In this document: positions 4,450 to 61,111 of the stretch, in pieces
How positions within the stretch are numbered: the first letter of the stretch is position 1
Layout of the letters: every line of letters starts with the position of its first letter
Source: Trypanosoma brucei
Taxonomy: Eukaryota
NCBI GenBank assembly: GCA_000002445.1
Contig: CP000067.1
Location: forward strand, 1,344,001 to 1,408,000
DNA length: 64,000 nt
Direction of reading: 5' to 3'
Translations under genes and position numbers: made by a program
Notes under the pieces: model-generated
What the model was told of the DNA's origin: nothing
Database searches by the model: none
Seen by the model: the letters and a program-made list of their open reading frames with translations, nothing else

Positions 4450-7400
4450 TTATAGACTACCGAGAATATGACCAAAGTATGCGTTGTTTCCATGTTCCTC
4501 TCTAAAGTATTCACACAGTTGTGGGCGGACGCGGAGTGCTTCGATGAGGACCTGATCTGGCAGGTTTACGAGGAAGCTGCTGCACTCACGGTAGTGCATC
4601 TCTGCGAAGAGGAGGACACCGCGCCACAGCTGAACATCCTTTTCCCATGTTCCGTCCTTCGCTAGTGGAAGCAAGACCTCCTGATGGACAAATCGAACGA
4701 GGTCCACGGCCGCGCGTGGTGGGTGGAGACCGCAGGCGAAAATCAGTGTTGCCATCAACTGTGAGGGAACTTTTGTAGCTCCAGTGTTCTTCATTAACTG
4801 TCGCACTGCCCCTTTGATTTCTGCTGGTCCGTAGAGGTATTCGGTCGTGCTCTCGTCGAAGGTCCGCCGCAGTTTTAGCAGCACACAAATCACCTCTTTC
4901 GTTGTGAGGGCACTGAGGGGAAGATTCTCAGCGATGAGCGAGGTTTCGCCTTCCGCTGTCCTTGCTTTTGCGTTGTTACCAACCACACTGCCATCAGGAG
5001 ACTGGGGGCCGGAGGAACTGAGAATGCCACGTGTTTCTGCATGAGTCCTCATTGGTGTCTCCACAACAGTTGAGTGGGGAGAGGATTGATGAGCTTTGCT
5101 TTGATATGCATCCCCATCGCGTACTCCACGTGTAGCGTGATGCAAATAAACAAGAAGATCCACACGCGAAACCCCGCGTGGGGAGCCGTCACTAAACTGC
5201 ACTGGTGAGCGGACAAGGACTTCTTGTGCAACATCGCGAATGAGCCGAGACATTTCCTCCTCGCTCATGCGCATCGACTCTGGTGCCGTGTCATTGTCCA
5301 TTGTTTCCTCGGCCCGTTGCTGGAGCTGTTGTTCCACAAAGTGCAGAAACGAACGGAGGTAAGTCCTCTTAAGCTCCTCCATCGGAATGAGACTCATAAA
5401 AGGGGCAATGAACCGCACGTCGTGAAGGGACGCAGGCGATTCCTGCACGTTTACCACGTCAGCGGGCTCGCCGTTGCTCGCGAGAGCACTGTGATATACG
5501 AAAGGTATTTCGCTATTTTCATACATCACACGTGCGTGGCCGAGCAGAGCTGCGGCTATTCCCTCCAGATCCGCTGCTGATACCTCACCACCTTTCCCCA
5601 TCGACCGTAGCTCAGCACTAACCGCCCACAATATCCTCTGAACAAGCATCGTGGCACTGTTGCTGTACCGACGGAGATACGGCATCACATTCGACATGAA
5701 GGAGAGGGCGTCCGTTTGAAAGAGCCGCTGACACATGCGGCGCACGTCTACATGATCAGCAAGCAATTGGACCATGGCGGTGTTTTGCCGTTCGACGCAC
5801 TCTTTAAACACGTCAAGAAGTGCTGGAATGAGCTCGCGCGGTTGCCGGGCACACAACATAAGGAATGGCCCAAGATGGCGGTCCAGTGCTTCGGTCAGCT
5901 TCTGTAACTCCTTCGCTCGAGTTTCCGCCGCATCACCTCCCGTCATGGTCGTTTCTCCTTCTTCCTGTTTCGCCACAGCACTCCCTGAAGACGTAACTGC
6001 TGTTGGGAGCCTAGTGACTGGTATGGCGGCTATTTGCCGCTTGGCGTGCCGCACAAGAAGGGTCTCCACATTATCGTCAATCACGCGCCGGCCGTCCAGC
6101 CCGGCGGATGAGGCCAGTAGAGCACCTAATTGTTTCACTGCGAGGCGACGTGGATACTCACTCCTCGATGTAGTCATGTAGAGAAGGCTGTTTAGGGCGT
6201 AGCGTCGACAAACTGCGCGGCGCGCGGCGACACTTTTTAGAAGCCACATTCCCAGCAGGCAACGTGCCTTTTCCGGCGAAAGACAATAGTGTTTGTGCAA
6301 ATAGTGCCAAACATAGCGAGTAATGCGAGGGCACTGCAACAGCAAGTCGAGAAGCAACACTGGCATCTCGCCTTCCGTCAGCACCTCCATCATGCGGCAG
6401 AGAAAGTGGCTATACACACAAGGGTTTTGTATAGAGTCCTCACGGAAGAAGCGCGAAGGACCATCCGTTGCCGACTGTGCCTCTTCACTACCACTTACGC
6501 CCTCACGGTGGAAAGAGTCGAGATCGTTTCCGCCAAACGAGCTACCATCGTCACGTGGCCGCTTGCGGTCAGTTAGCGAACTTTGCATATCCGGTGCCTG
6601 CAGCCAGTCAACTGGGTTTTCCGTATCAATAGTGAGAACTGCACGTGACTGTAGCTGCACCTCACCCCCCATGTTAGCAAAGGCAGAAGAGGGGGAAACC
6701 GCAAACATCAGCGCCTTGCCGTCATGTTCATGCACCGGTGCCTGTGCTGAGTATAGCATGAAGAGTACCTGAAGGGCTAGCTGGTACGCCGATGTAAGTG
6801 GTGGAACCTTCGCTACTGGGCTCCCTCCTCTCGTCTTTTGAAAACTACTCGCCGCAGCCAGTTCTTTTTTCAAGCGGGCGCAGACGGCATCTAGCGCAGA
6901 ATCCATCATCGACGAGGGCATCTGAGCGATTGTACGGGCAATGAGTGCTTGGGCCTCTCGCACACGACCCTCTTGCGCATCCACCAACAGATCGTATGCG
7001 TCAAGTAACGAGAAAAGAGCGGCGCGCTGCATTGTGGCAAGACCGGACTCATTGCTGAGCAATTGTGCACCAGCTGCGTACATTGCCGTGCTTTCCTTCA
7101 AGTGCTCCAACAACCTGCCGACGGGAATATTTTCCACACCCTGCTGTTCAATACGACGAAGTCGCTGTAGTTCTGCCCTTTGTGCTCGTCGTACTGCTTC
7201 ATACTGTTGCTGTTGAAGTCCCTGCATGTGCAGCAACTGAATTCCCTGCTCATTAATAATGTCAAGGCGTGAGATACTCAAGAACACCATCTCTACGAGA
7301 GCGTTCGCCGGGAGGGGCCCGACAGTACTCTTAAGGAGCGTCTCCCGTGGCCCTCCATCGGCACCATCTTCCATAAGCGTTGGGTCATCAAAGTCAGCCG

Positions 7401-8787
7401 CTGCGCCTTCATTAACTACTGCATCACTGCTGGGCGCAGGTAATATCTGCTCACACTCACGCAGCCTCGAGGTTGCTGACGAGGACGGTGCCTCTTCCCA
7501 TTTAGCAGCACAAATGCGGTTATCGCCGCTAACGTCAGTTGCATTATTACAACCATTCTCAGCACCGACTCCGTCTTGTTGCAAATTCGTAAGTTTGAGT
7601 GGGTCGTCAACATCCAATTGCCCACCAAAGACACCAATGGCCGCTGTCACCGCACTTTCAATCGAGGGGAACACAGGCAGTTGCCGGTGGACCACTGAAA
7701 GCAGCCGGCGAATAGCGCGCTGAGGTCCAGCAGCGCGAAGCACATCAAACGCTGCCGCCGGTTTTTCCTGTGATTCGGTTCCTGTGGACTCTACAGATTT
7801 TTGTTGTTGGAGCACTAAATATTGCTGTACGGCCGTCAGCAAGCGGTTCGCTGCGAAACGCCCAACGACAACAATCGAGTCATCAGTTCCGCGTCCAGCA
7901 CAATGCCACAGTAGCTCCTCTACTACACGAAAAGTGCTTACCAGCACTAGTGGCGAAACGGCCGTGCCATGTGCACCATTTGGTTGCGGTGTAACCAACA
8001 ACCTTCCCTTGCCACTGCTGCTATTGGTCACATGAGGACGGAGGGCGTCCACTGCAGTGGAAAGGGGCAAAAACAACCCTTCAACGACCTGGCGCGCCGC
8101 CTGCAGGGCAGCTTCATTGCCTGTTCCGCCTTTCTGCATTTCCTTAACCGCTGCTAATGTCGCGTCCTCACTATTGGATACTTCCAGAAGCGAGAGAAGC
8201 AAGACACGCAGACAATCTATCACCTTCAGCTGCATGGCGGTGTCGTGGCGTTGATGTTGTTTACTTACGAATTCGGAAGCGTTAGAAGGACCAACGAGCC
8301 GCTTCGCCATAACGAGCCGGAGGGACTGCAATTCCCCACGTAGCGATGTGATGGATGAGCAATCTTCGGTCTCATTACTGCTTGGCGACAGAGCTGATTT
8401 AAAAGCCACTGCAGCCGTCTGCCGGAAGAGAGCTGTCACGGCTTCTGTCAGAAGCGAAAACAACTGAACGTCACCTACCGTTGATATCTCGTTAAAAAAG
8501 AGCGCAAGAAGAATATAATCATCCACCGCAAGTTGGCAATTACTGCCCCCAATGTTTGATGCTGTGGCACATAGAATACTCCCGATAGCTTTCATCAGAG
8601 AGCACTGCAGCACCACCTGTGAGCTATCGGCTGCGCTGTACGTGTCGACTAATGTTGTGATGGTTTCTCTTAGTGCTTCACCATCAGCAACGCCCTTGGC
8701 TGCGTCTTCAGCCAGCTGTTGGACGGGACCGAAGTCTACTGCGGCTACCGTTACGGCCTGCCTTGCCGCTTCGATGAAGGCTTCCAT
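4450..8787 (-). CDS. Large conserved hypothetical protein (1445 aa), possibly alpha-helical repeat/HEAT-like.
   Basis: Uninterrupted 4.3 kb ORF with coding-like composition and no low-complexity bias, on the minus strand like the rest of the unit. No diagnostic motif is recognisable by eye. Confidence 0.6.
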   Translation of the reverse strand: MEAFIEAARQAVTVAAVDFGPVQQLAEDAAKGVADGEALRETITTLVDTYSAADSSQVVLQCSLMKAIGSILCATASNIGGSNCQLAVDDYILLALFFNEISTVGDVQLFSLLTEAVTALFRQTAAVAFKSALSPSSNETEDCSSITSLRGELQSLRLVMAKRLVGPSNASEFVSKQHQRHDTAMQLKVIDCLRVLLLSLLEVSNSEDATLAAVKEMQKGGTGNEAALQAARQVVEGLFLPLSTAVDALRPHVTNSSSGKGRLLVTPQPNGAHGTAVSPLVLVSTFRVVEELLWHCAGRGTDDSIVVVGRFAANRLLTAVQQYLVLQQQKSVESTGTESQEKPAAAFDVLRAAGPQRAIRRLLSVVHRQLPVFPSIESAVTAAIGVFGGQLDVDDPLKLTNLQQDGVGAENGCNNATDVSGDNRICAAKWEEAPSSSATSRLRECEQILPAPSSDAVVNEGAAADFDDPTLMEDGADGGPRETLLKSTVGPLPANALVEMVFLSISRLDIINEQGIQLLHMQGLQQQQYEAVRRAQRAELQRLRRIEQQGVENIPVGRLLEHLKESTAMYAAGAQLLSNESGLATMQRAALFSLLDAYDLLVDAQEGRVREAQALIARTIAQMPSSMMDSALDAVCARLKKELAAASSFQKTRGGSPVAKVPPLTSAYQLALQVLFMLYSAQAPVHEHDGKALMFAVSPSSAFANMGGEVQLQSRAVLTIDTENPVDWLQAPDMQSSLTDRKRPRDDGSSFGGNDLDSFHREGVSGSEEAQSATDGPSRFFREDSIQNPCVYSHFLCRMMEVLTEGEMPVLLLDLLLQCPRITRYVWHYLHKHYCLSPEKARCLLGMWLLKSVAARRAVCRRYALNSLLYMTTSRSEYPRRLAVKQLGALLASSAGLDGRRVIDDNVETLLVRHAKRQIAAIPVTRLPTAVTSSGSAVAKQEEGETTMTGGDAAETRAKELQKLTEALDRHLGPFLMLCARQPRELIPALLDVFKECVERQNTAMVQLLADHVDVRRMCQRLFQTDALSFMSNVMPYLRRYSNSATMLVQRILWAVSAELRSMGKGGEVSAADLEGIAAALLGHARVMYENSEIPFVYHSALASNGEPADVVNVQESPASLHDVRFIAPFMSLIPMEELKRTYLRSFLHFVEQQLQQRAEETMDNDTAPESMRMSEEEMSRLIRDVAQEVLVRSPVQFSDGSPRGVSRVDLLVYLHHATRGVRDGDAYQSKAHQSSPHSTVVETPMRTHAETRGILSSSGPQSPDGSVVGNNAKARTAEGETSLIAENLPLSALTTKEVICVLLKLRRTFDESTTEYLYGPAEIKGAVRQLMKNTGATKVPSQLMATLIFACGLHPPRAAVDLVRFVHQEVLLPLAKDGTWEKDVQLWRGVLLFAEMHYRECSSFLVNLPDQVLIEALRVRPQLCEYFREEHGNNAYFGHILGSL

Positions 8788-10153: not shown

Positions 10154-10171
10154 AAATAAATAAATAAATAA

Positions 10172-10203
<32 letters not shown>
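10154..10203. repeat. Compound microsatellite: (AAAT)6 followed by (TA)~14.
   Basis: Read directly from the sequence. Confidence 0.9.
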
Positions 10204-10206
<3 letters not shown>

Positions 10207-12185: not shown

Positions 12186-14195
12186 CTAGCATAGCGCAAC
12201 GTGGCGCAGCACAAATCCTGGTGAAACCCTCACAGGGATATTCTCTGGTGGGTAATTGAACTGACGTTGCGCCACATCAAACCACCGCTCACACATTTTC
12301 ATCCAACCACTGATATCATACGGAGTGCATGGTAGCCCTTGTCGGTTATCACGAACATATTCCCCTTCCACTTTGTAATGGTGTTGCTGTTGTTGGTAAT
12401 GGTACTGTTGTTGCTGGCGTTGCTGCTGCTGCTGCTGTTGTTGTTGTTGTTTTCTTCGCCTTCGTGACTCTTCCTGCTCCCGCATTTCAGGTAACGGTGT
12501 GCGTGGAGGAGGCGGAAGGCGGTGGGTGATATTCCATTTGCTTGCGTAGTGATACCACAGAGCCGCTCGCCGGCCACAACATGAGGAGCAGTAAGGTGAT
12601 AGTTGCGATAATGAATACAATGATGATGTTGTGGTGCCCGCGGCATCATATGAAGGAGGAAAGGGTAGCCCCCGTGGTGGCGACGGTGGAGGAAAGAAGT
12701 CCGCGTGGAAGTATAATAAATCACTGAGGTATTCACTGTACGCTTTGGTCTGCTGCTGTTGTTGTTTCTGACCGTCACTACCTCTCGCAGTTGGCTGCTG
12801 GGCATGTTTGATTTGAATAAATGGCGAGTTTTGTTCATTGCCCCACGACTTGCCGGTCCAGACAGATATACACGTGTTGTTGGTCGCGCCTGTGGCGTTA
12901 GAAAAATGAGCCATTTTAAGGCTGGAGGTGTTGCCCACGGAACTGTAACAATATGGTGGTGGGGAAACTGGTGAAGACATGGGATTCCCCTTCAAGGTAA
13001 GCTCCTGATGGTTTCGGTCAAAGCCCCCCTGTTGCTGTTTCTGCACTGGTTGTCTTGAAGGGAGTCGTGGTTGTCCTTCCATGATATAATTCGCCAACGA
13101 CAAGGTGCCGAGGGGTAAACCTGCGGCCGCGATGATACTCGCGGCTGCAGCTTCGAAACCGATTGTTGATGATGCTGAAGAGGTAGCCATGGCCGTGGCA
13201 GCTGTCTGCCTGACAGGAGGTAGGGCCTTTCCGGCGTTGGTACCACTGCCGTGGCTGACAGCATTGATGTTGTAAACGTTGCTTATGTGGGCATTGCCGT
13301 CGTTACTGTTAGCATTTTTGTACCTCATGCGGCTTGCCGTGTAGACTGTGGCTCCAGTAGGCGCCTGTGGGTTCACGGCGCCGCTCACACCCGTGAAAGA
13401 CTGCGTCCACTCCCCGTTTGGAACCGTTATTGTTGGCGTTGTTGCAGGGGCCTTCCTCTTGTCACCTCTTTCCACATCGGCATCACCACTAGTCATTGGA
13501 ATCCTGCCGTAGGCGCTGTGCGTGCTGTAGACGTGGCTATATTGACTGTTGTTCCTGTTGTAGTTGTGACTGTAGTCAACATTTTCACCGCTGAAGCCGC
13601 AGCTATTGTTACCTTTGCAGTTGTATCGGCAGTAGTAATCTAGCCAATTATCTTCCTTGTTCTCAGCGTCTTTCTCCTCAGGACTGTTGTTTTTGTGACC
13701 ACCACCACCACCACCACAACCAATGACACTGTCACCGATAACAACATCATTCCCGGCAATGCCACCAACGGCATTCTCGTCCTCGTCCTCATCGTCTTCC
13801 ATGAAGAGTGGGATATTCACCGCTTGATGATTATGTTTGGCGATACCCGCGCCTCCCACTAGCTGTTGGAGTGGGACTGTGTAGTTTATGGTAGGGCGGC
13901 TGTGCTTTTCGCGGACGTGTACGTTCAACACGCTGCTGGTTGCACTCAATTCGTCTTCACCGCTCGGCCACCATCTTCCAGGCTCTTCATCGTTACCGTT
14001 ATTATTGTTATTATTATGATTGCCGTAACTGTCGTTGGTATTACTTCCGGCACCATGACTTTTGCGGTGGGGGTTGCTAAAGTGGCTCTTGTCCTCGTGG
14101 ACGTCATAAACACTCCAACGCGCAAAGTACGGCGGGCTTCCCGGGCCTCCATCTTGTCCCTCCGAAGGTTGGCGGGTGAAACCACGGGACTTCAT
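12186..14195 (-). CDS. Low-complexity N/Q/G/S-rich hypothetical protein (669 aa) with poly-Q, poly-N and poly-G runs and a short non-repetitive C-terminus.
   Basis: Long ORF in the transcribed orientation. Contains QQQQQQQQQQRQQQQ, NNNNNNN and GGGGGG tracts. The antisense ORFs in the same span are composition artefacts. Confidence 0.55.
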   Translation of the reverse strand: MKSRGFTRQPSEGQDGGPGSPPYFARWSVYDVHEDKSHFSNPHRKSHGAGSNTNDSYGNHNNNNNNGNDEEPGRWWPSGEDELSATSSVLNVHVREKHSRPTINYTVPLQQLVGGAGIAKHNHQAVNIPLFMEDDEDEDENAVGGIAGNDVVIGDSVIGCGGGGGGHKNNSPEEKDAENKEDNWLDYYCRYNCKGNNSCGFSGENVDYSHNYNRNNSQYSHVYSTHSAYGRIPMTSGDADVERGDKRKAPATTPTITVPNGEWTQSFTGVSGAVNPQAPTGATVYTASRMRYKNANSNDGNAHISNVYNINAVSHGSGTNAGKALPPVRQTAATAMATSSASSTIGFEAAAASIIAAAGLPLGTLSLANYIMEGQPRLPSRQPVQKQQQGGFDRNHQELTLKGNPMSSPVSPPPYCYSSVGNTSSLKMAHFSNATGATNNTCISVWTGKSWGNEQNSPFIQIKHAQQPTARGSDGQKQQQQQTKAYSEYLSDLLYFHADFFPPPSPPRGLPFPPSYDAAGTTTSSLYSLSQLSPYCSSCCGRRAALWYHYASKWNITHRLPPPPRTPLPEMREQEESRRRRKQQQQQQQQQQRQQQQYHYQQQQHHYKVEGEYVRDNRQGLPCTPYDISGWMKMCERWFDVAQRQFNYPPENIPVRVSPGFVLRHVALC

Positions 14196-37168: not shown

Positions 37169-38356
37169 TGAGGTTTCGGTTACTTCACTACTATGACTCG
37201 CTCACGCCGTACCGCCTAGATCGTATGCTAATTCGCAGCCTCTCTTGTCCGAGCTGTTCGCTTAGGTAACGAATGATGCCGACCAGTTGTAAGTGGCGGA
37301 ACAACAGACCCTTTCGCCAAGTGCGAGAACAGGCACGGGGTTCGGGCAATTGAACGGACTGGATGGCACCCCTTTCCCCTACCCCTACAACCTTCTAATC
37401 TTCCCTTCTCTAACTCCACTTCAACCCCTGTCACCTATTATTACACCTTCCTTATTTTTCAGTTCCTTGGGCTTTTTTTTTCAGTTTCTGTTCCTTTCCT
37501 AATGTTCCCCTCTTCGTCGCGGTTCTGCCTCGTGGGACCGCGTCGACTGCAGCACCTGCGGGAATACACCGAAGCACTACGGTGGAAACACTAGAAGCAA
37601 TACCAAAGCACTGATAATGAGGGACAAAGTTTGAGAGAAAGCGGAGCGGCTGAACGAGGAAAAAAAAGTCAGTCAAGCTAAAGCAATCAAAGTAGTTCCA
37701 ACGGCTAAAGGACAGCGCGCCTGCCTACACGTTGGTTAAGATACGACATTTATTTGCGCGTGTGTGTCCGAGAAAAAGTCATGCATAAAGCCCTCACCAT
37801 AGTGAGTACTCAAACATCGGGATACTCCCTTCCCTACACACACGCACATATTTGGATCGTTGCAACGCCCGCACGCAGACGTTTCAAAGTTATATTACAA
37901 TGACGTGCTTCTTTTCCCGTTGCCGTTGATAATGACTGCTTATCGCGCGGAGGATTTCGCCCTCCCCGCGCATTTCAGTCCCGGACACAACGGTATACAG
38001 AACACTGCACGGTATGAAACAAAGCAGAGAGGCGAAAGACAGGTAAAGTAGGGAGTCGATAGGTCTCTCACCTTCGAAGGAAGGAGACGATTGATTATGA
38101 ACTCACTGATAAGAGGGGTGGTAAAAAAGAAGAGAATGGGTGAGGGTGAGGGTGAGAGAAGGGAAGGGATAATACACTGTCCTGGATCTTATGCCCTCAT
38201 GCGATCTGCCTTTGACCAGCGCACAACAGTGCTCTCACATATCCCTTAAACGTATACACATGACGATGGAAGAACTGTAACTGAACATCCAGCAGTCACG
38301 CCATCCGCAATTATAGGCCTTTACGGGGACATGGGCTTGTATCCTTCCACCAACAT

Positions 38357-40183
38357 CTAGCGTCGCTCAATATCCTCGGTTACTTTTAAGCTTTGCCTCA
38401 CTACCGACTGCTCTAACCGGGTGGCTTCTAAATTCCGCTCCATCTCTTTTTGCTCGTGTGTGACCTCCGGCGATGAGGGGGCGCAGTCGCTTGCGTCGGA
38501 GCCGCCGGCTCGGCCGCGGGCACCGTGCGGTGGGCGCCATTCGGTGAGCGTTAGATTTGGCATCGTGTTGGGCTTGATGTTTGACCGGCCGAGAATCATA
38601 CGAATACATTCAACAAACCCTTGTACCACTGCCGGGTACGCTGCTGTCAGCTTCAGCAGTGAGTACACAGAATCTGACTGTCGAATGGCAAGTGACGCGA
38701 CTTCAACTATGCTTCCTGCGTGAGCCCCGACTGCGCGAACGCCTAGAAGCAGTTTCTGCCGGTCGTTTGTTACAATCACCTTACAAAATCCCTGTGCACC
38801 ACCCATTGCGATGGCACGGCTGAGATGGCTGTAGTCGTAACGCGCAACGATGTAACCGAACCCAAGAGCACGGCATTGTTCCTCGTTGAGTCCAACGCAA
38901 GCCACCTCCTCTTCGAGAAAGAGGATGGTGGAAAGGTTTGTGAGAAGAGAAGAATTAACCGGTCGCGCAGGTTTCTCCCCGTAAATGTGCTCAACAGCCC
39001 CTCGGCCTTGTGCCTCACCGAGGTTCACCAAACCCCGGTCAGCGGAAACATCACCAACAGCGTAAATGTGCTTGTAAGGGACACAACGACCAAAAGCATC
39101 CAGTGTAACCTGTCCGCCGGTGACCTTGCACGCAGTGTTCTCGAGGCCAAGGCCAGAGAGGTTTGGTGTGCGACCCAAAGACACCAGTGCTCGTTCTGCC
39201 TCATACGTCTCCACGCTATTTGCATCATTCCTATTATTCGTTGTGTTGTGTCGCACACTGTACACACATCCCCCAACATCGTCACTCTCCTCCCATGACT
39301 CTAGGTCAAACAGGGTACAGGTGTTGAGAATACGTACCCCCCGTCGCGTAAGATGCTCCTCGACAAAGTTTGCGATATCCTCGTCTTCCTTCGGAAGAAT
39401 CCGTTTGGCTTTGTCGATGATTGTCACTTCTGTGCGGCCAAAGTTGGCGTATATGCTGGCGAACTCACATCCCACTGCACCAGCTCCGATAATTACCAAG
39501 CTTGACGGGATGGGTAACTGCATGATGGTGTCCGTCGTCACGACTCGTCGGTGATCCGCTACAACGAATTCGTGTTGCCGTGGTACGGAGCCTGTAGCAA
39601 TAATGAAGTAATCAGCAGTAAGAACGTGATATTCATTTGCACCGGGGCTATGCACATCCAGTTCATGTGGTGAAGAAAACATAGCCCTTCCAAACACTGT
39701 TGTGACCCCGGCAGCCCGCAACAACTCAACAGTCTGAGTTTCCCGCGTTGCACTAACCTCTTGCAAGGTTTGTTGCACTCTTGATAGGTCCAGTTTCTGC
39801 TGAATTTCCCTCACCGTGTCGTCGTCGAAAACCCGCCGAGCTGACGCTCCGGAGAGAGAGGATACATACTTCGACATTTCCCACAACGTTTTTGACTGTA
39901 ATGCACCATCCCACAGATCGCAACCACCAATACGCTTTGCTTCTACAAGACAGACCCGTTTGTTGTAGTCCACAGCTCGTAGGGCTGCCGCAATGCCAGC
40001 GGGGCCGGCACCAATGACACAAACATCGAAACGAGGCAAATTTGAGGGGATATAACTGACGCAAGCTGATCTCAAGGAACATACCCGGCACAGCCGAATC
40101 ATCACTGTGGTAACGGTATTAATTACTAAAACTACGTGTGGGGGCGTTGTCACGTGAAATGTTGCAGAGATCATAGGAAACAC
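38357..40183 (-). CDS. Dihydrolipoamide-dehydrogenase-like pyridine nucleotide-disulfide oxidoreductase homologue that lacks the redox-active CxxxxC and the catalytic His. It is a predicted pseudoenzyme with N- and C-terminal extensions.
   Basis: FAD motif VCVIGAGPAGIAAA, NAD motif VIIGAGAVGCEFA, and a C-terminal dimerisation domain are all present. Where DLD/GR/TR have GGTCLNVGCIPSK this protein has GGCDLWDGALQSK (a single Cys). Where they have HPTxxE it has YPAVVQGFVE (His replaced by Tyr). Confidence 0.75.
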   Translation of the reverse strand: MFPMISATFHVTTPPHVVLVINTVTTVMIRLCRVCSLRSACVSYIPSNLPRFDVCVIGAGPAGIAAALRAVDYNKRVCLVEAKRIGGCDLWDGALQSKTLWEMSKYVSSLSGASARRVFDDDTVREIQQKLDLSRVQQTLQEVSATRETQTVELLRAAGVTTVFGRAMFSSPHELDVHSPGANEYHVLTADYFIIATGSVPRQHEFVVADHRRVVTTDTIMQLPIPSSLVIIGAGAVGCEFASIYANFGRTEVTIIDKAKRILPKEDEDIANFVEEHLTRRGVRILNTCTLFDLESWEESDDVGGCVYSVRHNTTNNRNDANSVETYEAERALVSLGRTPNLSGLGLENTACKVTGGQVTLDAFGRCVPYKHIYAVGDVSADRGLVNLGEAQGRGAVEHIYGEKPARPVNSSLLTNLSTILFLEEEVACVGLNEEQCRALGFGYIVARYDYSHLSRAIAMGGAQGFCKVIVTNDRQKLLLGVRAVGAHAGSIVEVASLAIRQSDSVYSLLKLTAAYPAVVQGFVECIRMILGRSNIKPNTMPNLTLTEWRPPHGARGRAGGSDASDCAPSSPEVTHEQKEMERNLEATRLEQSVVRQSLKVTEDIERR

Positions 40184-40653
40184 AGGAGGGCTGTTTATAC
40201 GGGAAAATTAAGGGGTGCTATTGATCAAACTAACGTTCTCTTCCTTCATACGCGATTACAACATATATTTCCCACCAGCTTTTTTAGCGTAAAAGGTACG
40301 TCCGGTTACTGGACTACACGTCACGCAAATAAACAGGGTCCAAGACGGAGGATCGACTCAAAGGAGAAAAATGATGTGTGATTTCATTGAGCGCTCCCTT
40401 GTTGTCTCATGAAAAGAGTAACTCTGGGAAGGGAGTGTACACGTCATTTTTTAAAAAAGGAATAAGTTGCGTTACGCGGAACGCGATTGGGCCATTCACC
40501 TTTCCAGTCAAGCGGACCCTCCTCGCGACCACTTGATGAACAGCAGCCATCCGCCCACCCGAAGGCAAACGGCAGCCCCACTCCAAGAACAGACATGCGT
40601 GTAAACTCCAGCCCACGTGTTCCCGACCTCTTCATGCCCGTCTGTTTTACCAC

Positions 40654-42290
40654 CTATTGTTTGCCACCGCCTTGAGCATTTCCCAGCGAACAATAGCCCC
40701 GACCTCGCTCACAGTCAGACGGAGTCCATGTATTGCAGACGAGACCGGGGAATGTACCAGGTTTTAACATGGATGTGCCCAATATGACGCGCAAGCACTC
40801 TAGAAATGCTTGTGAAACGGATGGGTACGCTGTGAGCATTTCACTCAGCTCGTATGCCGACTGTTTACGTTGAATCGCCGCGGTAGCGAACTCTACGATA
40901 GTACTTGCGCTCCATCCCACTACGTGAACGCCGAGAAGCGTCTTTTTACTGTCATTACTCGCGAGTATTTTTACAAACCCTTCGGTGTTGCTTGCAGCCA
41001 CGTTGCGACTGCAGAGTTCAAACCCATACTTGGCCACTACATACGATACATTTTTTGCTCTGCACTGCTTTTCGTTTTTTCCCACGGAAGCTACGGCACT
41101 GTCTAGGAATACAATTCTGGAATGGTCGGGGTGAAGCGGCTCCGTTATGTGTGAACTGTATATATGATCTACTGCCAACCGCCCCTTCGCTTCGCCCATA
41201 CTCACTGACCTGTCACGACCTGTTGCGTCTCCCACGGCGTAAATGTGTTTTTTGTTTACACACCTGCCAAATTCGTCTAGCACAAGTACCCCGTCGCGCA
41301 CTTCGCAGTTAGTATTACGTAGGCCCAGTCCGAAGTAATTCGGTCGGCGCCCAGTCACGGTGAGGCCCCGCTCCACTTCGTACGTCTGAAGTTCATGTGT
41401 CTTGCGGTGCATGATGGTATAGCGAACTCCATTCCCCGAGGTGCCGTCATTTGGTGTCTCCTGGCCATCACTCTCACTTTTGGTCAGTGATTGTAAGCTG
41501 TACAGCAAGCAATCTTGGTGCACCTCTACGCCATGCTTTTCCATTCCCTTCTGTATCGCTGCTGCCATATCATCATCTTCCTTCGGCATTATGCGCTCCT
41601 TCTTGTCTAGTAGAAACACCTTGGTCTTACCAAGCCTGCCGTATGTCATCGCGGATTCACTGCCAAGCGCGCCGCCACCCACCACTACCATGCTTTTTGG
41701 CAGCGGTAACGTCATAAGGTCATCGGAAGTCACCACGTTCTTGTGGTCCACGGGCACATGTGGCTGCGTGACAGGGGCAGAACCTGTGGCGATGATGAAA
41801 TAATCAGCCGTCACCGTTCGGTACTCCTTTGCCTCGCGGCTACTGACCTCTAACTCATGAGGGCTAGCAAAAGCGGCGCGACCGTAGAGTAACGCCACGT
41901 TAGAGGCGCTGAGGGCAGATAGTACCTGCTTTTCCCGCGTCTCGCTCACCTCTTGCAGTTTCTGCAGCATGCGTTCATCATCGAGTTCCATAAAATTTGA
42001 AATGGTAGTTCCATACACCCGTTCGGCGGAACTTCCCCTCGCGCGCCCCAAAAAGTTTGACATTTCCCACAACGTTTTCGACTGAAGTGTGCCATTCCAC
42101 AGATCGCAACCGCCAGTACGTTTTGCTTCTACAATTCAGACCCGTTTGTTGTAGTCCACAGCTCGTAGGGCTGCTGCAACGCCAGCGGGACCGGCGCCGA
42201 TGACACATACGTCGAAATGTGTTTTGCCGAGCGACTGCCAGTAGACGAGGTGTGGTCGCTGGTGCGTGAAGGAGAAACGTGTGTGCCGTA
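40654..42290 (-). pseudogene. Tandem paralogue of the DLD-like gene. It is disrupted by an in-frame TGA at 42136-42138 and has no in-frame ATG upstream of the FAD-binding motif. It is either a pseudogene or an N-terminally truncated product starting at Met 42072.
   Basis: In the frame of ORF 40654..42072 the upstream sequence reads ...GKTHFDVCVIGAGPAGVAAALRAVDYNKRV*IVEAKRTGGCDLWNGTLQSKTLWEMSNFLG. This is homologous to the copy-1 N-terminus, where the stop position is occupied by TGT CTT (Cys-Leu). The rest of the protein is about 55-60% identical to copy 1. Confidence 0.55.
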
Positions 42291-43649
42291 ACACGGTAAT
42301 GATTCGTGCCAAAGTTACCTGATTTACACCCAGGCACCAAACCGAGCAGCGCGGGGTACCAGACTATGCCAATCACCTCACCCGCAGCCTACATACTGGG
42401 ATTGGGCAATGACTAAAGAGGGAAAAAAATTGTTCATCACCCTCCTCTTCGTCCGTTTTTCAAGGGATGCAGTCACCTTCTGGTGTGTAGTCTCTCTACC
42501 GCCAGTAAAATGGAGTGTCGGGGATGAACTACAGAAGACAAAAAGCAAGAGAGAAAAAAGAAAACTATGTATGTGTGGGTTGTGCGAAAGGGTTAACAAT
42601 TTCAGCACCCGTCACATTGCCCCAAAACACCTGAAGTGACAAACAAAAGCATGTAGACGTTAAAGTTAGAAATAATGCATATGCACATGTTTGACGCTCA
42701 TTTAGTTCTCGGAAAACAAAAATAAAAAAATTGAGCGACGCTCAACCCTGAGCCCCCCCCCCAGTATTGCTTCTATCTGCATTAATGTGTCAGAATACTT
42801 GCAACCAAGGGAATCAACAATGAGGGGGACAACAAGAACAGGAGGGGAGTCGTGGGGAAACAAAGACATCTGACGGCATTTTTCTTTCTCCATTATGCAG
42901 TAAAAGTAACAAGCACATAAAACACAAACACTTGCAAAAAATTGTGGAAAATGGAGAGGTAGAATTAAAAGAAGGTGTTAGGACTCACCTACTTAGACCC
43001 CAATGAAAAACAAGTACTAAAGGTGCCGTGGGTAGATGGCCGACAGCAACATCGTGCGCGGGGCGAGCTACTACCACAAGCGTAATGCATAAATATGACT
43101 ATTTCGGCTTCACCATACCCCGATGAACAAAGCTATGTGTCGCATATTCACATCGTGCACTACGTGGTTACACATGAAATAAAACAAAAATGGGAGTCGT
43201 CCAAGGTGACTCAGGTAATCCTACCGCTGACGGAAACATACATACATATATGGAGAAGCATTAAACAACCCGCTAAAAAACGAAAATGGGAGGCAAACTT
43301 AAAGAGATGAAAAAATAATCACTTATTTGTGAAAACGGGGTCCCATTTGGGATGTAATAAAAATAAGGGAGGTGAGAAAACCACAACTAAAGTAAACACG
43401 GTGGCATTAAAGATAAAACCACGGAAGAACAATTAAACTGAGAAACTTGGCTCAAACAAGGGAGAGCAAAAAATACATATACGAAAAATAAGTGAGTGTT
43501 TGTGGACGGTAACCCCCGCAGCTTACATCCGGTGTGCTTTGCATAGGAAACTTCCCCTGTGCACGTATGAGGTTGGTCAACGCAGTAACGTTTTGCAGGC
43601 CCCCATGCTTTCTCTCGTTACCACTGAATTTATCAACACCACCAGTGTT

Positions 43650-56821: not shown

Positions 56822-59800
56822 TCATTTCCGGAACACGAACGTCGCCAGGAGACTTTTCTTGAGAACTTCCATTACCTCGCGAATGTTGTTGGCTTTTGTG
56901 CCGTTAACTTCCTCGAGGAACCACACGGGCTTTGACTGATACGTACGCATGAAGGGGTGCAAACGGCGTGGGTCTGAGAGCCTGTACATCGGTAAGGAAC
57001 CGATGGCCAGCGTTTTAACTGTCCAGTCGAACCGCAGGCCAATATCCCACGGAACATCCAAGCTTTGCCGTCGCACTACCAGTCGGTTCTCGTCAAACTT
57101 TTCGATCGCAACACTGCCGTTTGGAAAGATGAGAGCATTGGCAACCAAAGTTGCCTCCGACGGAGAGGAAACGGGTGTGACCGTGGGCAAACCGCTAACT
57201 CTACTCGTGGAAATGAGCGGCACGTCACCAACAGCTTGCGTGACAGCAGCTGCAGTCACATCACCTACCTTACAGACTGGTCTCTGGTTGCGGGCCATCA
57301 CCTGCTTTCTATATCTTTCTAACTTTTTCCTTGCTCTTTCATGTCGCTGCTGTTCAGATAAAGTGCATTCCTGGTTAGACGCAATCCGCGGAGGCCCGTC
57401 ACTGGCACGATTTCCTCCCAACCCCTCCTCTTCCACAACACATCCTTCTTCGTCGGAATTCTTGCGCCCAGCCCCACCCTCAGCCTTCATGCGCTCAGCC
57501 TCTTCCTCAGCCTTCATGCGCTCAGCCTCTTCTTCAGCCTTCATGCGCTTAACCTCTTCTTCAGCCTTCATGCGCTCAGCATCTTCTTCAGCCTTCATGC
57601 GCTCAGCCTCTTCCTCAGCCTTCATGCGCTCAGCCTCTTCCTCAGCCTTCATGCGCTTAACCTCTTCCTCAGCCTTCATGCGCTCAGCCTCTTCTTCAGC
57701 CTTCATGCGCTCAGCCTCTTCCTCAGCCTTCATGCGCTCAGCCTCTTCTTCAGCCTTCATGCGCTCAGCCTCTTCCTCAGCCTTCATGCGCTCAGCCTCT
57801 TCCTCAGCCTCCACGCGCTCAGCATCTTCTTCAGCCTTCATGCGCTCAGCCTCTTCTTCAGCCTTCATGCGCTCAGCCTCTTCTTCAGCCTTCATGCGCT
57901 CAGCATCTTCTTCAGCCTTCATGCGCTCAGCCTCTTCTTCAGCCTTCATGCGCTCAGCCTCTTCTTCAGCCTTCATGCGCTCAGCATCTTCTTCAGCCTT
58001 CATGCGCTCAGCATCTTCTTCAGCCTTCATGCGCTCAGCATCTTCTTCAGCCTTCATGCGCTCAGCCTCTTCCTTCTTTGTCCAAGCATCACTCTGAAGC
58101 TGGTTACGGGAAACCTTTTCTGCCATTCTGCGTGCACCTTTATTCGCTCGCTTCCGCAGAGTTTTTCGTGCTTCAGCAAGTTTTCGGGCTCTCTCAGCCT
58201 TCTTCCTGGCAGCTTCCTCCTCTGCTCTCTTCCTGGCAGCTTCCTCCTCAGCTTTCTTCCTGGCAGCTTCCTCCTCTGCTTTCTTTCTGGCAGCTTCCTC
58301 CTCTGCCTTCTTCCTGGCAGCTTCCTCCTCAGCCTTCTTCCTGGCAGCTTCCTCCTCTGCTTTCTTCCTGGCTGCTTCCTCCTCAGCCTTCTTCCTGGCA
58401 GCTTCCTCCTCTGCCTTCTTCCTGGCTGCTTCCTCCTCAGCCTTCTTCCTGGCAGCTTCCTCCTCAGCTCTCTTCCTGGCAGCTTCCTCCTCTGCTCTCT
58501 TCCTGGCTGCTTCCTCCTCTGCTTTCTTCCTGGCTGCTTCCTCCTCAGCCTTCTTCCTGGCAGCTTCCTCCTCTGCCTTCTTCCTGGCTGCTTCCTCCTC
58601 AGCCTTCTTCCTGGCAGCTTCCTCCTCAGCCTTCTTCCTGGCAGCTTCCTCCTCAGCTCTCTTCCTGGCAGCTTCCTCCTCAGCCTTCTTCCTGGCTGCT
58701 TCCTCCTCTGCTCTCTTCCTGGCTGCTTCCTCCTCAGCCTTCTTCCTGGCTGCTTCCTCCTCTGCTTTCTTCCTGGCAGCTTCCTCCTCAGCTTTCTTCC
58801 TGGCAGCTTCTTCGGCCTTCATGCGTGCCTTTCGTGCTTGAGCGCGTTTTCGCATCTTTTCAGCCTTCTTCCTGGCTGCTTCCTCCTCTGCTTTCTTCCT
58901 GGCAGCTTCCTCCTCTGCCTTCTTCCTGGCTGCTTCCTCCTCAGCTTTCTTCCTGGCAGCTTCCTCCTCTGCTCTCTTCCTGGCAACTTCCTCCTCTGCT
59001 TTCTTCCTGGCAGCTTCCTCCTCAGCCTTCTTCCTGGCTGCTTCCTCCTCAGCCTTCTTCCTGGCAGCTTCCTCCTCTGCTCTCTTCCTGGCAGCTTCCT
59101 CCTCTGCTCTCTTCCTGGCAGCTTCCTCCTCTGCCTTCTTCCTGGCAGCTTCCTCCTCTGCTCTCTTCCTGGCTGCTTCCTCCTCTGCTTTCTTCCTGGC
59201 AGCTTCTTCGGCCTTCATGCGTGCGTTTCGTGCTTGAGCGCGTTTTCGCATTTTTTCAGCTTTCTTCCTGGCAGCTTCCTCCTCTGCTTTCTTCCTGGCT
59301 GCTTCCTCCTCAGCTTTCTTCCTGGCAGCTTCCTCCTCTGCTTTCTTCCTGGCAGCTTCCTCCTCTGCTTTCTTCCTGGCAGCTTCCTCCTCAGCTTTCT
59401 TCCTGGCAGCTTCCTCCTCAGCTTTCTTCCTGGCTGCTTCCTCCTCAGCTTTCTTCCTGGCAGCTTCCTCCTCTGCTCTCTTCCTGGCTGCTTCCTCCTC
59501 AGCTTTCTTCCTGGCAGCTTCCTCCTCAGCTTTCTTCCTGGCTGCTTCCTCCTCAGCTTTCTTCCTGGCAGCTTCCTCCTCTGCTCTCTTCCTGGCAGCT
59601 TCCTCCTCTGCTTTCTTCCTGGCAGCTTCCTCCTCTGCTTTCTTCCTAGCTGCTTCTTCTGCTTTCTTCGCCGTGGTATCTTTCTCTCTCATTCGACTTC
59701 TCGCAGATAATTTCTTAGCGCGTTTCCTTTCCCCATCTGTTTTCGAGCGCTTTTGCCGAGTTTCCAACCTTTCCATCGAAGCCTTCTTCGTTGCTGTGTT

Positions 59801-61111
59801 AAACGCAGTTTCGTCTGTCACTATGTTCATGTTGTTTTTCTGAAATGTTTTTACATCGACAAATGCGGAGAGAATGGGTCTGCTCACGGAGCTGTTGACG
59901 CGCTTCTGTTTTAGCGCATCACCGTTGTTCCGAGCTCTTTCAACTTCACCGGGGGTTTGACACACAAAATCCTTGCTATATACGGGCCCATCCCCATAAT
60001 TTAATCCCTGTGAATGCATTTCGGGGACGTTTCGGGGAAGCACGCTGGAGATGGCGAGATGTGCGGGGGTCGTCACGCTTTGTTTGGTGTGATTGATGCC
60101 GTTTTTCGTGGAAGTCAACTCCACCACTGACGGAGGGAAAGTTGTGTCGCCTTTGGGCTGCCTGGATTCAAATCCTCGTGGGGCGGCATGCGCTTGATGC
60201 CTTGACCCGTTCAAATCGTAGTGGGTCTCAACCTGTGTTCCCTTCGGCCCTTCGACACAATGAGTTGCGCCGATATTTCCCGTAGCCATTGAGAGCGCTG
60301 TACCACCCCTCCAAAGCCGCTGCCGCTCCTCCAGCGCGCTTACAGTCATCTGGACCGCAGTGGTTTGTACGGGAGCAGCCGTCATAGTGGCTGTTTCTGA
60401 AATTCTGGTGTCCACATCAGGTTTTGGAAGTTGGCACTGCGTCCCCTGGTGTTGTTTCATGCTCTTGAATGCCCCCACATCTCCCTGCGCGGTCGGCTCC
60501 GTTTTTTTCTTTGCTTCTGCAACCAACTTGCTGGCATCATCAGAAACCTCTGTTGTGGGCTTACAGTGCATCCCTAGTTGCTGATGTCCCGTTGTCTTGG
60601 TGCCAACTGTCCCCCTTTCCTTATCAGTTACAGACCGTGACTTGGGGTCAATGCCATCGCTAAACTTCGCCACTCCGGGGCGATGTGCCTCGTCAAGCGA
60701 CTTCGGCGGCATCAATGCGGTTTCGAGTTTGAAAGCAGTTGAATTAACAGTCGGAGCAACTCCCGTCGACTGCACTTCTGGTGTGGCAGCGGTTGGGGGG
60801 TTGACGCCGAAGGGCGTGTTCTGATGCTCATACGTGGCCTTACGCCCCTCATGTTGGTGCTGCGCTACTGTCGGTGATAGCGAAGACTTTGGAGTCACAA
60901 GTTTCTGTGCGTGAGCAGCCGTATGGTGGTGGTGACGGCGATGGCGGCGAGCAGCCATAAATTCTTGATTCAGGGATGGGATGAAAAGTGAATGGGAAAA
61001 GAGGGATTTCAACTTCAGAAAGTGAGAAGACGCCAAGGAAAGAAGAGGCCTCAAACCAGAGAGGTTAACAAGCGTCTCTAGGCAATGCCCCAACACACAA
61101 CCGCTGGACAC
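56822..61111 (-). CDS. Giant repeat-containing protein (about 1429 aa) that includes two arrays of 9-aa repeats (AEEEAERMK type and AEEEAARKK type). It has an H-rich N-terminus and a non-repetitive C-terminal domain.
   Basis: Single long ORF. An alternative start is Met 60956-60958 (MAARRHRRHHHH), because the upstream codons translate UTR-like sequence. The repeats are read directly from the sequence. The non-repetitive C-terminal region of about 250 aa suggests a functional globular domain. Confidence 0.75.
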   Translation of the reverse strand: MSSGCVLGHCLETLVNLSGLRPLLSLASSHFLKLKSLFSHSLFIPSLNQEFMAARRHRRHHHHTAAHAQKLVTPKSSLSPTVAQHQHEGRKATYEHQNTPFGVNPPTAATPEVQSTGVAPTVNSTAFKLETALMPPKSLDEAHRPGVAKFSDGIDPKSRSVTDKERGTVGTKTTGHQQLGMHCKPTTEVSDDASKLVAEAKKKTEPTAQGDVGAFKSMKQHQGTQCQLPKPDVDTRISETATMTAAPVQTTAVQMTVSALEERQRLWRGGTALSMATGNIGATHCVEGPKGTQVETHYDLNGSRHQAHAAPRGFESRQPKGDTTFPPSVVELTSTKNGINHTKQSVTTPAHLAISSVLPRNVPEMHSQGLNYGDGPVYSKDFVCQTPGEVERARNNGDALKQKRVNSSVSRPILSAFVDVKTFQKNNMNIVTDETAFNTATKKASMERLETRQKRSKTDGERKRAKKLSARSRMREKDTTAKKAEEAARKKAEEEAARKKAEEEAARKRAEEEAARKKAEEEAARKKAEEEAARKKAEEEAARKRAEEEAARKKAEEEAARKKAEEEAARKKAEEEAARKKAEEEAARKKAEEEAARKKAEEEAARKKAEEEAARKKAEKMRKRAQARNARMKAEEAARKKAEEEAARKRAEEEAARKKAEEEAARKRAEEEAARKRAEEEAARKKAEEEAARKKAEEEAARKKAEEEVARKRAEEEAARKKAEEEAARKKAEEEAARKKAEEEAARKKAEKMRKRAQARKARMKAEEAARKKAEEEAARKKAEEEAARKKAEEEAARKRAEEEAARKKAEEEAARKRAEEEAARKKAEEEAARKKAEEEAARKKAEEEAARKKAEEEAARKKAEEEAARKRAEEEAARKRAEEEAARKKAEEEAARKKAEEEAARKKAEEEAARKKAEEEAARKKAEEEAARKKAEEEAARKKAEEEAARKKAEEEAARKRAEEEAARKKAERARKLAEARKTLRKRANKGARRMAEKVSRNQLQSDAWTKKEEAERMKAEEDAERMKAEEDAERMKAEEDAERMKAEEEAERMKAEEEAERMKAEEDAERMKAEEEAERMKAEEEAERMKAEEDAERVEAEEEAERMKAEEEAERMKAEEEAERMKAEEEAERMKAEEEAERMKAEEEVKRMKAEEEAERMKAEEEAERMKAEEDAERMKAEEEVKRMKAEEEAERMKAEEEAERMKAEGGAGRKNSDEEGCVVEEEGLGGNRASDGPPRIASNQECTLSEQQRHERARKKLERYRKQVMARNQRPVCKVGDVTAAAVTQAVGDVPLISTSRVSGLPTVTPVSSPSEATLVANALIFPNGSVAIEKFDENRLVVRRQSLDVPWDIGLRFDWTVKTLAIGSLPMYRLSDPRRLHPFMRTYQSKPVWFLEEVNGTKANNIREVMEVLKKSLLATFVFRK
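57478..58075 (-). repeat. Tandem array A: about 22 copies of a 27-bp unit (plus strand ccttcatgcgctcagcctcttcctcag) encoding AEEEAERMK/AEEDAERMK.
   Basis: Direct sequence reading. Copies differ only at D/E and V/M wobble positions. Confidence 0.9.
58196..59668 (-). repeat. Tandem array B: about 52 copies of a 27-bp unit (plus strand cttcctggcagcttcctcctctgctct) encoding AEEEAARKK/AEEEAARKR. It is interrupted twice by an identical linker of about 55 bp (KAEKMRKRAQARNARMK), giving a higher-order periodicity of about 400 bp.
   Basis: Direct sequence reading. The linker occurs at about 58806-58862 and again at about 59206-59262. Confidence 0.9.

What the first reader, a model, noticed from the sequence alone, without database searches (positions are those of the whole stretch)
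42058..42290. Copy 2 of the DLD-like gene carries an in-frame TGA and lacks an upstream ATG
In the reading frame that continues into ORF 40654..42072, the sequence upstream encodes the homologous FAD-binding N-terminus (GKTHFDVCVIGAGPAGVAAALRAVDYNKRV). It is then broken by TGA at 42136-42138, where copy 1 has TGT-CTT (Cys-Leu). The open frame upstream (to about 42360) contains no ATG. Either this is a pseudogene, or it is a truncated protein starting at Met 42072 that would lack the FAD-binding loop. A third possibility is a sequencing or strain polymorphism, and a recoded UGA (Sec or readthrough) is a remote option.
Basis: seen in the sequence. Interest (0 to 1): 0.55.

Follow-up and report, generated by a model that had tools for sequence, protein, structure and literature searches.

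The report
Known decaying duplicate gene in trypanosome
The stop codon and the missing start codon are real, but they mark an ordinary, already published pseudogene: a redundant copy of a dihydrolipoamide-dehydrogenase-like gene left on Trypanosoma brucei chromosome 4 by the chromosome 4/8 duplication, and now decaying.

Summary
On the minus strand, copy 2 (window 42294..40654) has TGA at 42138-42136, where every relative has a Cys codon. It has GTG at 42294-42292, where every relative has the ATG start.

The window matches the T. brucei chromosome 4 side of the chromosome 4/8 segmental duplication. An intact 546-aa paralog lies on chromosome 8 (Tb927.8.7380). There, copy 1 has been deleted.

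Jackson 2007 (PMC2212663) already reports this pair, Tb927.4.5050/Tb927.8.7380, as a case of pseudogenisation that restores the original copy number.

- The ATG>GTG loss is shared by the chromosome 4 copies of T. b. gambiense and T. b. equiperdum.
- Among these three assemblies the TGA occurs only in the window. T. b. equiperdum has its own TAG at codon 177.
- Ten amino-acid replacements arose on the chromosome 4 branch and none on the chromosome 8 branch. Two of them (F214S, A310G) hit columns where all 16 aligned relatives agree.
- The neighbouring copy 1 has no amino-acid change among the three assemblies.
- No SECIS element was found.

Selenocysteine, readthrough and sequencing error are each poorly supported. 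Verdict: a dead or dying pseudogene, already known, of low interest.

The parts
40654..42294 (-). Copy 2 of the DLD-like gene: the chromosome 4 pseudogene (corresponds to Tb927.4.5050). 546 codons plus stop, collinear without indels with the intact chromosome 8 paralog.
   Evidence: 98.1% nucleotide identity to the T. b. gambiense chromosome 8 gene (L001 5001-6641) with no gaps. Jackson 2007 names the pair and its pseudogenisation.
42292..42294 (-). Lost start codon: GTG where the chromosome 8 paralogs and all 16 aligned relatives have ATG/Met.
   Evidence: GTG is shared by the window, T. b. gambiense chromosome 4 (L003) and T. b. equiperdum chromosome 4 (L002). The chromosome 8 copy examined at DNA level (L001, T. 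b. gambiense) has ATG, and both chromosome 8 proteins (P0001, P0121) start with Met.
42136..42138 (-). In-frame TGA at codon 53, replacing a Cys that all 16 aligned relatives keep (KRVCLVE, just before the conserved Glu).
   Evidence: The codon is TGT in T. b. gambiense chromosome 4, in chromosome 8 and in the window's copy 1, and TGC in T. b. equiperdum chromosome 4.
42096..42180 (-). 85-nt tract that holds 8 of the 12 coding differences between the window and the other two chromosome 4 copies. Five bases are unique to the window (42180, 42136, 42135, 42121, 42116). At three sites (42175, 42112, 42096) the T. b. gambiense and T. b. equiperdum copies carry copy 1's base, which indicates a short gene-conversion tract from copy 1 in those lineages.
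   Evidence: clustering P = 2e-8.
42061..42063 (-). First in-frame ATG downstream of the TGA. It would give a 469-aa product without the FAD-binding GxGxxG motif.
38357..40174 (-). Copy 1 of the DLD-like tandem pair: an intact 605-aa gene, corresponding from memory to Tb927.4.5040. Its protein is identical in the three assemblies.
   Evidence: 0 nonsynonymous and 1-6 synonymous differences in each pairwise comparison of the three assemblies.
42295..42314 (-). The last 20 nt upstream of the start codon that still align with chromosome 8. Further upstream the two chromosomes cannot be aligned.

Best explanation
Copy 2 is a unitary pseudogene produced by duplicate-gene loss.

The inferred history is as follows. 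Trypanosomes carry an old tandem pair of DLD-like genes, with copy 2 upstream and copy 1 downstream. In the T. brucei lineage a roughly 0.5-Mb segment holding this pair was duplicated onto chromosomes 4 and 8, which gave four genes. Chromosome 8 then lost copy 1 through a 2.2-kb deletion and kept copy 2 intact (Tb927.8.7380, 546 aa). Chromosome 4 kept copy 1 intact, and its copy 2 became redundant.

The first disabling event still visible is ATG>GTG at the start codon. It predates the split of the three T. brucei assemblies compared here. After that the gene drifted:
- Ten amino-acid replacements accumulated on the chromosome 4 stem.
- The window's strain gained TGT>TGA at codon 53, within a cluster of five substitutions.
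- T. b. equiperdum gained CAG>TAG at codon 177.
- In T. b. gambiense and T. b. equiperdum, an 80-98-nt gene conversion from the adjacent copy 1 overwrote the same stretch.

The sequence is presumably still transcribed as part of the polycistron. It makes no functional flavoprotein.
For: Shown:
- The TGA and the missing ATG are present.
- Intact 546-aa relatives exist: P0001 from T. b. gambiense and P0121 from TREU927 and T. b. equiperdum. In the two assemblies held here they lie at a different locus from the window's, where the gene is followed directly by PP1 and RPB1 with no copy 1 in between.
- The window is collinear at 98.3-98.7% identity with the chromosome 4 loci of T. b. gambiense and T. 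b. equiperdum. No gene is called there at the copy 2 position.
- GTG is shared by all three chromosome 4 copies. The TGA is unique to the window. T. b. equiperdum has an independent TAG.
- Ten amino-acid replacements are derived on the chromosome 4 stem and none on the chromosome 8 stem, polarised with T. congolense, T. vivax and four other orthologs. Binomial P = 0.002.
- The window is the only deviant at four columns where the other 16 sequences agree: M1, C53, F214 and A310.
- Among the three assemblies, pairwise dN/dS of the chromosome 4 copy 2 is 0.36-0.57. Copy 1 has 0 nonsynonymous and 1-6 synonymous differences. Fisher P = 0.015 for window versus T. b. equiperdum.
- Jackson 2007 reports rate asymmetry with 'apparent pseudogenisation' for Tb927.4.5050/Tb927.8.7380. 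[quoted passage not shown]

Inferred: the order of events, and the absence of any protein product.
Against: - dN/dS among the chromosome 4 copies is 0.36-0.57, not about 1. The counts are small (6-13 nonsynonymous, 4-7 synonymous).
- There are no indels or frameshifts over 1641 nt, so the decay is young or is slowed by gene conversion.
- The T. b. gambiense chromosome 4 copy has no internal stop and could in principle be translated from a non-AUG or downstream start.
- No expression data (RNA, ribosome profiling or proteomics) were examined.
- The strain of the window was not identified. It is neither T. b. gambiense DAL972 nor the T. b. equiperdum assembly. It is consistent with TREU927, but the look-ups could not confirm this.
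Confidence: 0.93

Rival explanations
1. The locus makes a truncated protein that starts at ATG 42063-42061 (469 aa) and has some residual or new function.
For: An uninterrupted 469-codon ORF remains. It still matches Pyr_redox_2 (from profile position 58 onward), Pyr_redox and Pyr_redox_dim. Polycistronic transcription means an RNA probably exists (established knowledge of trypanosomatid transcription).
Against: - The product would lack the GxGxxG FAD-binding beta-alpha-beta motif and the conserved Glu.
- It carries F214S and A310G at columns where all 16 aligned relatives agree.
- T. b. equiperdum has a TAG at codon 177, inside this ORF, so the ORF is not conserved.
- No such protein is on record in the protein collection.
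Confidence: 0.04
2. The TGA is an assembly or sequencing error, or a private strain polymorphism, in an otherwise functional gene.
For: Among the three chromosome 4 copies compared, only the window has the TGA, so it is polymorphic within T. brucei.
Against: - The start-codon loss and ten derived replacements are shared by three independent assemblies. The gene is therefore defective without the TGA.
- The TGA is one of five window-specific substitutions within 65 nt (P = 1e-5). That is not what a single base-call error looks like.
- Jackson 2007 also treated the chromosome 4 copy as a pseudogene.
Confidence: 0.02
3. The UGA is recoded, either as selenocysteine or by programmed readthrough, and yields a full-length protein.
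For: The TGA replaces a Cys codon that all 16 aligned relatives keep. A Cys/Sec exchange is the usual signature of selenoproteins. From memory, kinetoplastids have Sec machinery (SelK, SelT, SelTryp).
Against: - No SECIS family matches anywhere in 38000-43500, even at E <= 10.
- The only ATGA..AA..GA regex match in the 3' region (40635) does not fold into a SECIS-type helix.
- There is no AUG from which to start.
- Cys53 aligns with a Cys at the same position in pea DLD, upstream of that enzyme's redox-active disulfide, and is neither of its two cysteines.
- Sister assemblies have TGT or TGC, and one has a TAG elsewhere.
- The other decay signatures argue against any selection on the product.
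Confidence: 0.005

Closest known systems
Tb927.4.5050 / Tb927.8.7380, paralog pair 20 of the T. brucei chromosome 4/8 duplicons (Jackson 2007, BMC Genomics 8:432, PMC2212663)
   Same: The gene, gene order (DLD-like gene, PP1, RPB1), paralog on the other chromosome, rate asymmetry and pseudogenisation of the chromosome 4 copy all match. So does the loss of one tandem copy from chromosome 8. The CDS is conserved while the flanks are unalignable: homology ends 20 nt upstream of the start and 16 nt past the stop, and the paper lists 18 bp of 3' UTR.
   Different: No difference of substance. The paper does not give the lesions themselves. Identified here are ATG>GTG shared by three assemblies, the TGA specific to the window, an independent TAG in T. 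b. equiperdum, and a short conversion tract from copy 1.
Dihydrolipoamide dehydrogenase (E3), class I pyridine nucleotide-disulfide oxidoreductases, for example pea DLD 1dxl
   Same: The domain architecture is the same: Pyr_redox_2, Pyr_redox and Pyr_redox_dim. E = 6.6e-50 to 1dxl over the full length. The GxGxxG motifs are present.
   Different: The whole kinetoplastid family, intact members included, lacks both redox-active cysteines. It reads GGCDLWNGTLQSK where DLD has GGTCLNVGCIPSK. The C-terminal His..Glu pair reads AYPSVSQ where DLD has AHPTMSE. The intact genes are therefore probably not true lipoamide dehydrogenases.

Membership tests
Pseudogene (non-processed, from a segmental duplication) | Recognisable homology to a functional gene over its full length | tested here: met
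   98.1% nucleotide identity with no gaps to the intact chromosome 8 paralog. Pfam E = 1.6e-41.
Pseudogene (non-processed, from a segmental duplication) | Disabling lesions in the reading frame | tested here: met
   Start codon ATG>GTG and TGA at codon 53. An independent TAG at codon 177 in T. b. equiperdum.
Pseudogene (non-processed, from a segmental duplication) | Relaxed selective constraint compared with functional relatives | tested here: met
   Ten derived replacements on the chromosome 4 stem against none on chromosome 8, P = 0.002. The window is the sole deviant at M1, C53, F214 and A310, where the other 16 sequences agree. Neighbouring copy 1 has no nonsynonymous change. dN/dS is only 0.36-0.57, on small counts.
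Pseudogene (non-processed, from a segmental duplication) | A functional copy elsewhere makes the gene redundant | tested here: met
   An intact 546-aa paralog is present at the paralogous locus in T. b. gambiense and T. b. equiperdum (DNA examined) and as an annotated TREU927 protein.
Pseudogene (non-processed, from a segmental duplication) | No protein product | not testable with these tools
   No proteomic or ribosome-profiling data were available. No protein with this sequence is on record in the collection.
Eukaryotic selenoprotein gene | SECIS element in the 3' UTR | tested here: not met
   The Rfam scan of 38000-43500 at E <= 10 gives no SECIS family. The single regex candidate at 40635 lacks a SECIS-like fold.
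Eukaryotic selenoprotein gene | UGA at a redox-active Cys position, conserved as Sec or Cys among orthologs within an intact ORF | tested here: not met
   Cys53 is kept by all 16 aligned relatives but is not one of the cysteines of the redox-active disulfide. The ORF has no AUG. Sister assemblies carry other lesions.
Dihydrolipoamide dehydrogenase (class I disulfide oxidoreductase) | Redox-active CxxxxC disulfide and C-terminal His-Glu dyad | tested here: not met
   GGCDLWNGT aligns to GGTCLNVGC, and AYPSVSQ aligns to AHPTMSE. The same holds across the family.
Dihydrolipoamide dehydrogenase (class I disulfide oxidoreductase) | FAD- and NAD-binding Rossmann domains plus a dimerisation domain | tested here: met
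   Pfam PF07992, PF00070 and PF02852 are all above their cut-offs on the conceptual translation.

The most novel reading that the evidence does not exclude
The pseudogene is not simply inert. It exchanges short gene-conversion tracts with the adjacent functional copy 1, and the stop-bearing stretch 42096-42180 is the ancestral pseudogene state. In T. b. gambiense and T. b. equiperdum, conversion from copy 1 'repaired' that stretch. On this reading the locus would be a natural record of ectopic conversion between tandem paralogs in T. brucei, and possibly a reservoir of variants for copy 1.
Probability: 0.3. Interest if true: 0.25.

Novelty: already known. Interest (0 to 1): 0.08.

Why it matters
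It matters little beyond annotation. The result confirms that this ORF should be labelled a pseudogene and not a truncated or recoded enzyme.

It also gives a clean, datable example of reciprocal duplicate loss after the T. brucei chromosome 4/8 duplication. Each chromosome kept one member of the old tandem pair, which restored the original two-gene dosage.

The independent stop codons in different subspecies and the short conversion tract are small additions to what Jackson 2007 described.

A side point is of some interest. The intact family members lack the catalytic cysteines and the His-Glu dyad of real lipoamide dehydrogenases, so their annotated function is doubtful.

Tried and rejected
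- Selenocysteine. The Rfam scan at E <= 10 over 38000-43500 found no SECIS. A regex for ATGA..AA..GA in the 3' region gave one ATGA candidate at 40635, and its fold is not SECIS-like. Rejected.
- Strain identification. Exact-sequence look-ups of the 445-aa neighbour and of the 469-aa truncated ORF found nothing. The window's strain could not be named, and no further strains could be sampled.
- Literature. A phrase search for 'dihydrolipoamide dehydrogenase point mutation' found nothing (the first attempt was a syntax error). A search on gene IDs gave only Jackson 2007 and two unrelated catalogue papers.
- A third DLD-like paralog (P0070-type) as donor of the five clustered window-specific changes. 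It shares V39 and I54 but differs at intervening positions where the window does not. Rejected by inspection only, with no DNA-level test.
This was corrected once its different genomic context showed that it is the chromosome 8 paralog.

Full report
**Observation.** All long ORFs in this part of the window lie on the minus strand. That fits a trypanosomatid polycistronic unit. Read on the minus strand, the frame that runs into ORF 40654..42072 encodes ...LGKTHFDVCVIGAGPAGVAAALRAVDYNKRV, then TGA at 42138-42136, then IVEAKRTGGCDLWNGTLQSK.... Upstream the frame is open back to a TAG at 42366-42364, and the 75 codons between contain no ATG. Copy 1 (38357..40174, minus strand, 605 aa) has TGT-CTT at the homologous site. 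The observation therefore stands, with one correction. 42072-42070 is TTG, and the first in-frame ATG after the stop is at 42063-42061.

**What the gene is.** The conceptual translation matches Pfam Pyr_redox_2 (E = 1.6e-41), Pyr_redox and Pyr_redox_dim. The best database hits are two intact 546-aa proteins, 97% identical to the query. One is P0001 from T. b. gambiense DAL972. The other is its cluster-mate P0121 from T. b. brucei TREU927 and T. b. equiperdum, which its sources name 'dihydrolipoamide dehydrogenase, point mutation'. Orthologs of both copy 2 and copy 1 occur in other Trypanosoma species. The tandem pair therefore looks old.

**Genomic context.**
- The intact P0001 gene (L001, record FN554971) is followed directly by a PP1 phosphatase and RPB1, with no copy 1 between them.
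- The window is collinear at 98.7% identity over 21.7 kb with a different T. b. gambiense record (L003, FN554967), and at 98.3% with T. b. equiperdum (L002). Both of those carry copy 1, PP1 and RPB1, and no gene is called at the copy 2 position.
- Against the P0001 locus, homology covers window 42314..40638 (copy 2). It then jumps to 38412. This corresponds to a 2.2-kb deletion on that chromosome. The deletion removed all of copy 1 except its last ~55 nt, across a short imperfect microhomology.
- This is the known chromosome 4/8 partial duplication of T. brucei. Jackson 2007 (PMC2212663) lists the pair as number 20, Tb927.4.5050 and Tb927.8.7380. The paper reports significant rate asymmetry 'coincid[ing] with apparent pseudogenisation of one paralog'. 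[quoted passage not shown]

**The lesions.** An ungapped DNA alignment of the window's copy 2 with the two other chromosome 4 copies and a chromosome 8 copy shows the following:
- The start codon is GTG in all three chromosome 4 copies and ATG on chromosome 8.
- Codon 53 is TGA only in the window. It is TGT in T. b. gambiense chromosome 4 and chromosome 8, and TGC in T. b. equiperdum chromosome 4.
- T. b. equiperdum chromosome 4 has its own CAG>TAG at codon 177.

The start-codon loss is thus shared and older. The stop codons are independent and younger, which is the expected pattern for a gene already released from selection.

**Relaxed constraint.**
- Polarising with T. congolense, T. vivax and four other copy-2 orthologs gives ten replacements derived on the chromosome 4 stem: M1V, H18Y, T112K, F214S, T216M, V243M, A310G, I312T, T399S and E413A. 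None is derived on the chromosome 8 stem. Binomial P = 0.002.
- In a 17-sequence alignment the window is the sole deviant at M1, C53, F214 and A310, where the other 16 sequences agree.
- Among the three assemblies the chromosome 4 copy 2 shows 6-13 nonsynonymous and 4-7 synonymous differences per pair (dN/dS 0.36-0.57). The adjacent copy 1 shows 0 nonsynonymous and 1-6 synonymous differences. Fisher P = 0.015 for window versus T. b. equiperdum.
- dN/dS is below 1 and there are no indels. The decay is therefore either recent or slowed by gene conversion.

**A clustered tract.**
- Eight of the 12 coding differences between the window and both other chromosome 4 copies fall in the 85 nt from 42096 to 42180 (P = 2e-8).
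- At three of these sites (42175, 42112, 42096) the window agrees with chromosome 8, while T. b. gambiense and T. b. equiperdum carry the base found in copy 1. Flanking sites where copy 1 differs from every copy 2 bound the tract at 80-98 nt. This indicates a short conversion from copy 1 in those lineages.
- The other five sites (42180, 42136, 42135, 42121, 42116, including the TGA) are unique to the window.
- One event could explain both sets. The ancestral pseudogene may have carried the five changes, and conversion later erased them in T. b. gambiense and T. b. equiperdum.
- Five substitutions in 65 nt is still more than the background rate predicts (P = 1e-5). The origin of the cluster therefore remains open.

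**Rival readings.**
- Selenocysteine or readthrough. No SECIS family matches in 38000-43500 even at E <= 10. The single regex candidate at 40635 does not fold like a SECIS. There is no AUG. Cys53 aligns with a Cys at the same position in pea DLD, upstream of that enzyme's redox-active disulfide, and is neither of its two cysteines. Sister assemblies have sense codons there and other lesions elsewhere.
- Sequencing error. This cannot explain a start-codon loss seen in three assemblies.
- Truncated protein. A 469-aa product from ATG 42063 would lack the FAD-binding motif. It would carry F214S and A310G, and its ORF is interrupted in T. b. equiperdum.

**Comparison with known families.** The gene belongs by sequence to the class I pyridine nucleotide-disulfide oxidoreductases, closest to DLD (E = 6.6e-50 to 1dxl). 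The whole kinetoplastid family, intact copies included, has GGCDLWNGT where DLD has GGTCLNVGC, and AYPSVSQ where DLD has AHPTMSE. It therefore lacks both redox cysteines and the His-Glu dyad. The name 'dihydrolipoamide dehydrogenase' is probably wrong as a description of function. That concerns the family, not this finding.

**Verdict.** The best explanation is a redundant duplicate undergoing pseudogenisation (confidence 0.93). This has been published since 2007. The additions here are the exact lesions, their distribution across three assemblies, and the conversion tract. Interest is low.

**Limits.** The window's strain could not be named. No further strains and no expression data could be examined.

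Noticed in passing
window 38357-42294; proteins P0001, P0035, P0070 and relatives: All three kinetoplastid clades of DLD-like proteins, intact ones included, lack both redox-active cysteines: GG[CASV]DLW[ND]G[TA]LQSK aligns to GGTCLNVGCIPSK. They also lack the C-terminal His..Glu dyad (AYPSVSQ where DLD has AHPTMSE). They are probably not lipoamide dehydrogenases, and their real activity is unknown.
   Followed up: partly
L001 6641-6660, against window 40654-40638 and 38412-38357: On chromosome 8, copy 1 was removed by a 2.2-kb deletion. Its junction lies 8-16 nt after the copy 2 stop codon, at an imperfect ~9-nt microhomology ([AG]CAG[ACT]CGG). The last ~55 nt of copy 1's CDS now lie just downstream of the chromosome 8 gene's stop codon.
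   Followed up: partly
window 42096-42180: Five substitutions unique to the window lie within 65 nt. They sit exactly where T. b. gambiense and T. b. equiperdum show a copy1-to-copy2 conversion tract. Whether the five changes are ancestral and were later erased, or came from a single multi-base mutational event in this strain, is unresolved.
   Followed up: partly
window 42314 and 40638 (edges of homology with L001): The chromosome 4 and chromosome 8 copies are 98% identical across the CDS, but they become unalignable 20 nt upstream of the start and 16 nt after the stop. This sharp CDS-limited homology matches Jackson's 'conserved CDS / divergent NCS' class. It may reflect inter-chromosomal gene conversion or remodelled flanks.
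   Followed up: no
L002 and L004 (T. b. equiperdum GCA_003543875.1, record CM010675.1): In this assembly the chromosome-4-type locus (2017186-2039003) and the chromosome-8-type locus (993220-1000860) lie on the same 2.37-Mb record. This points to a scaffolding artefact or a different karyotype.
   Followed up: no
L002 15229-20351: In the T. b. equiperdum assembly the RPB1 gene at the chromosome-4-type locus is called as two pieces (1040 aa and 630 aa) instead of 1765 aa. This suggests an assembly error or a lesion there.
   Followed up: no
window 57459-59656: Two long arrays of 27-nt tandem repeats (22.7 copies and 54.9 copies, 86-94% matches) lie inside the 1429-aa minus-strand ORF 56822..61111. 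The region shows extreme strand skew (GC skew -0.39, AT skew -0.66). This would be a protein with 9-residue repeats.
   Followed up: no
window 10001-12000: An AT-rich stretch (GC 0.33, against about 0.50 elsewhere) with no ORF of 200 aa or more, between the genes at 4450..8787 and 12186..14195.
   Followed up: no
protein P0121 (AAZ13501.1 / XP_847567.1): The product name 'dihydrolipoamide dehydrogenase, point mutation' is attached to the intact chromosome 8 protein. It has been propagated to T. congolense and T. b. gambiense UniRef entries, although the copy with the in-frame stop is the chromosome 4 one. The label may be misplaced.
   Followed up: no
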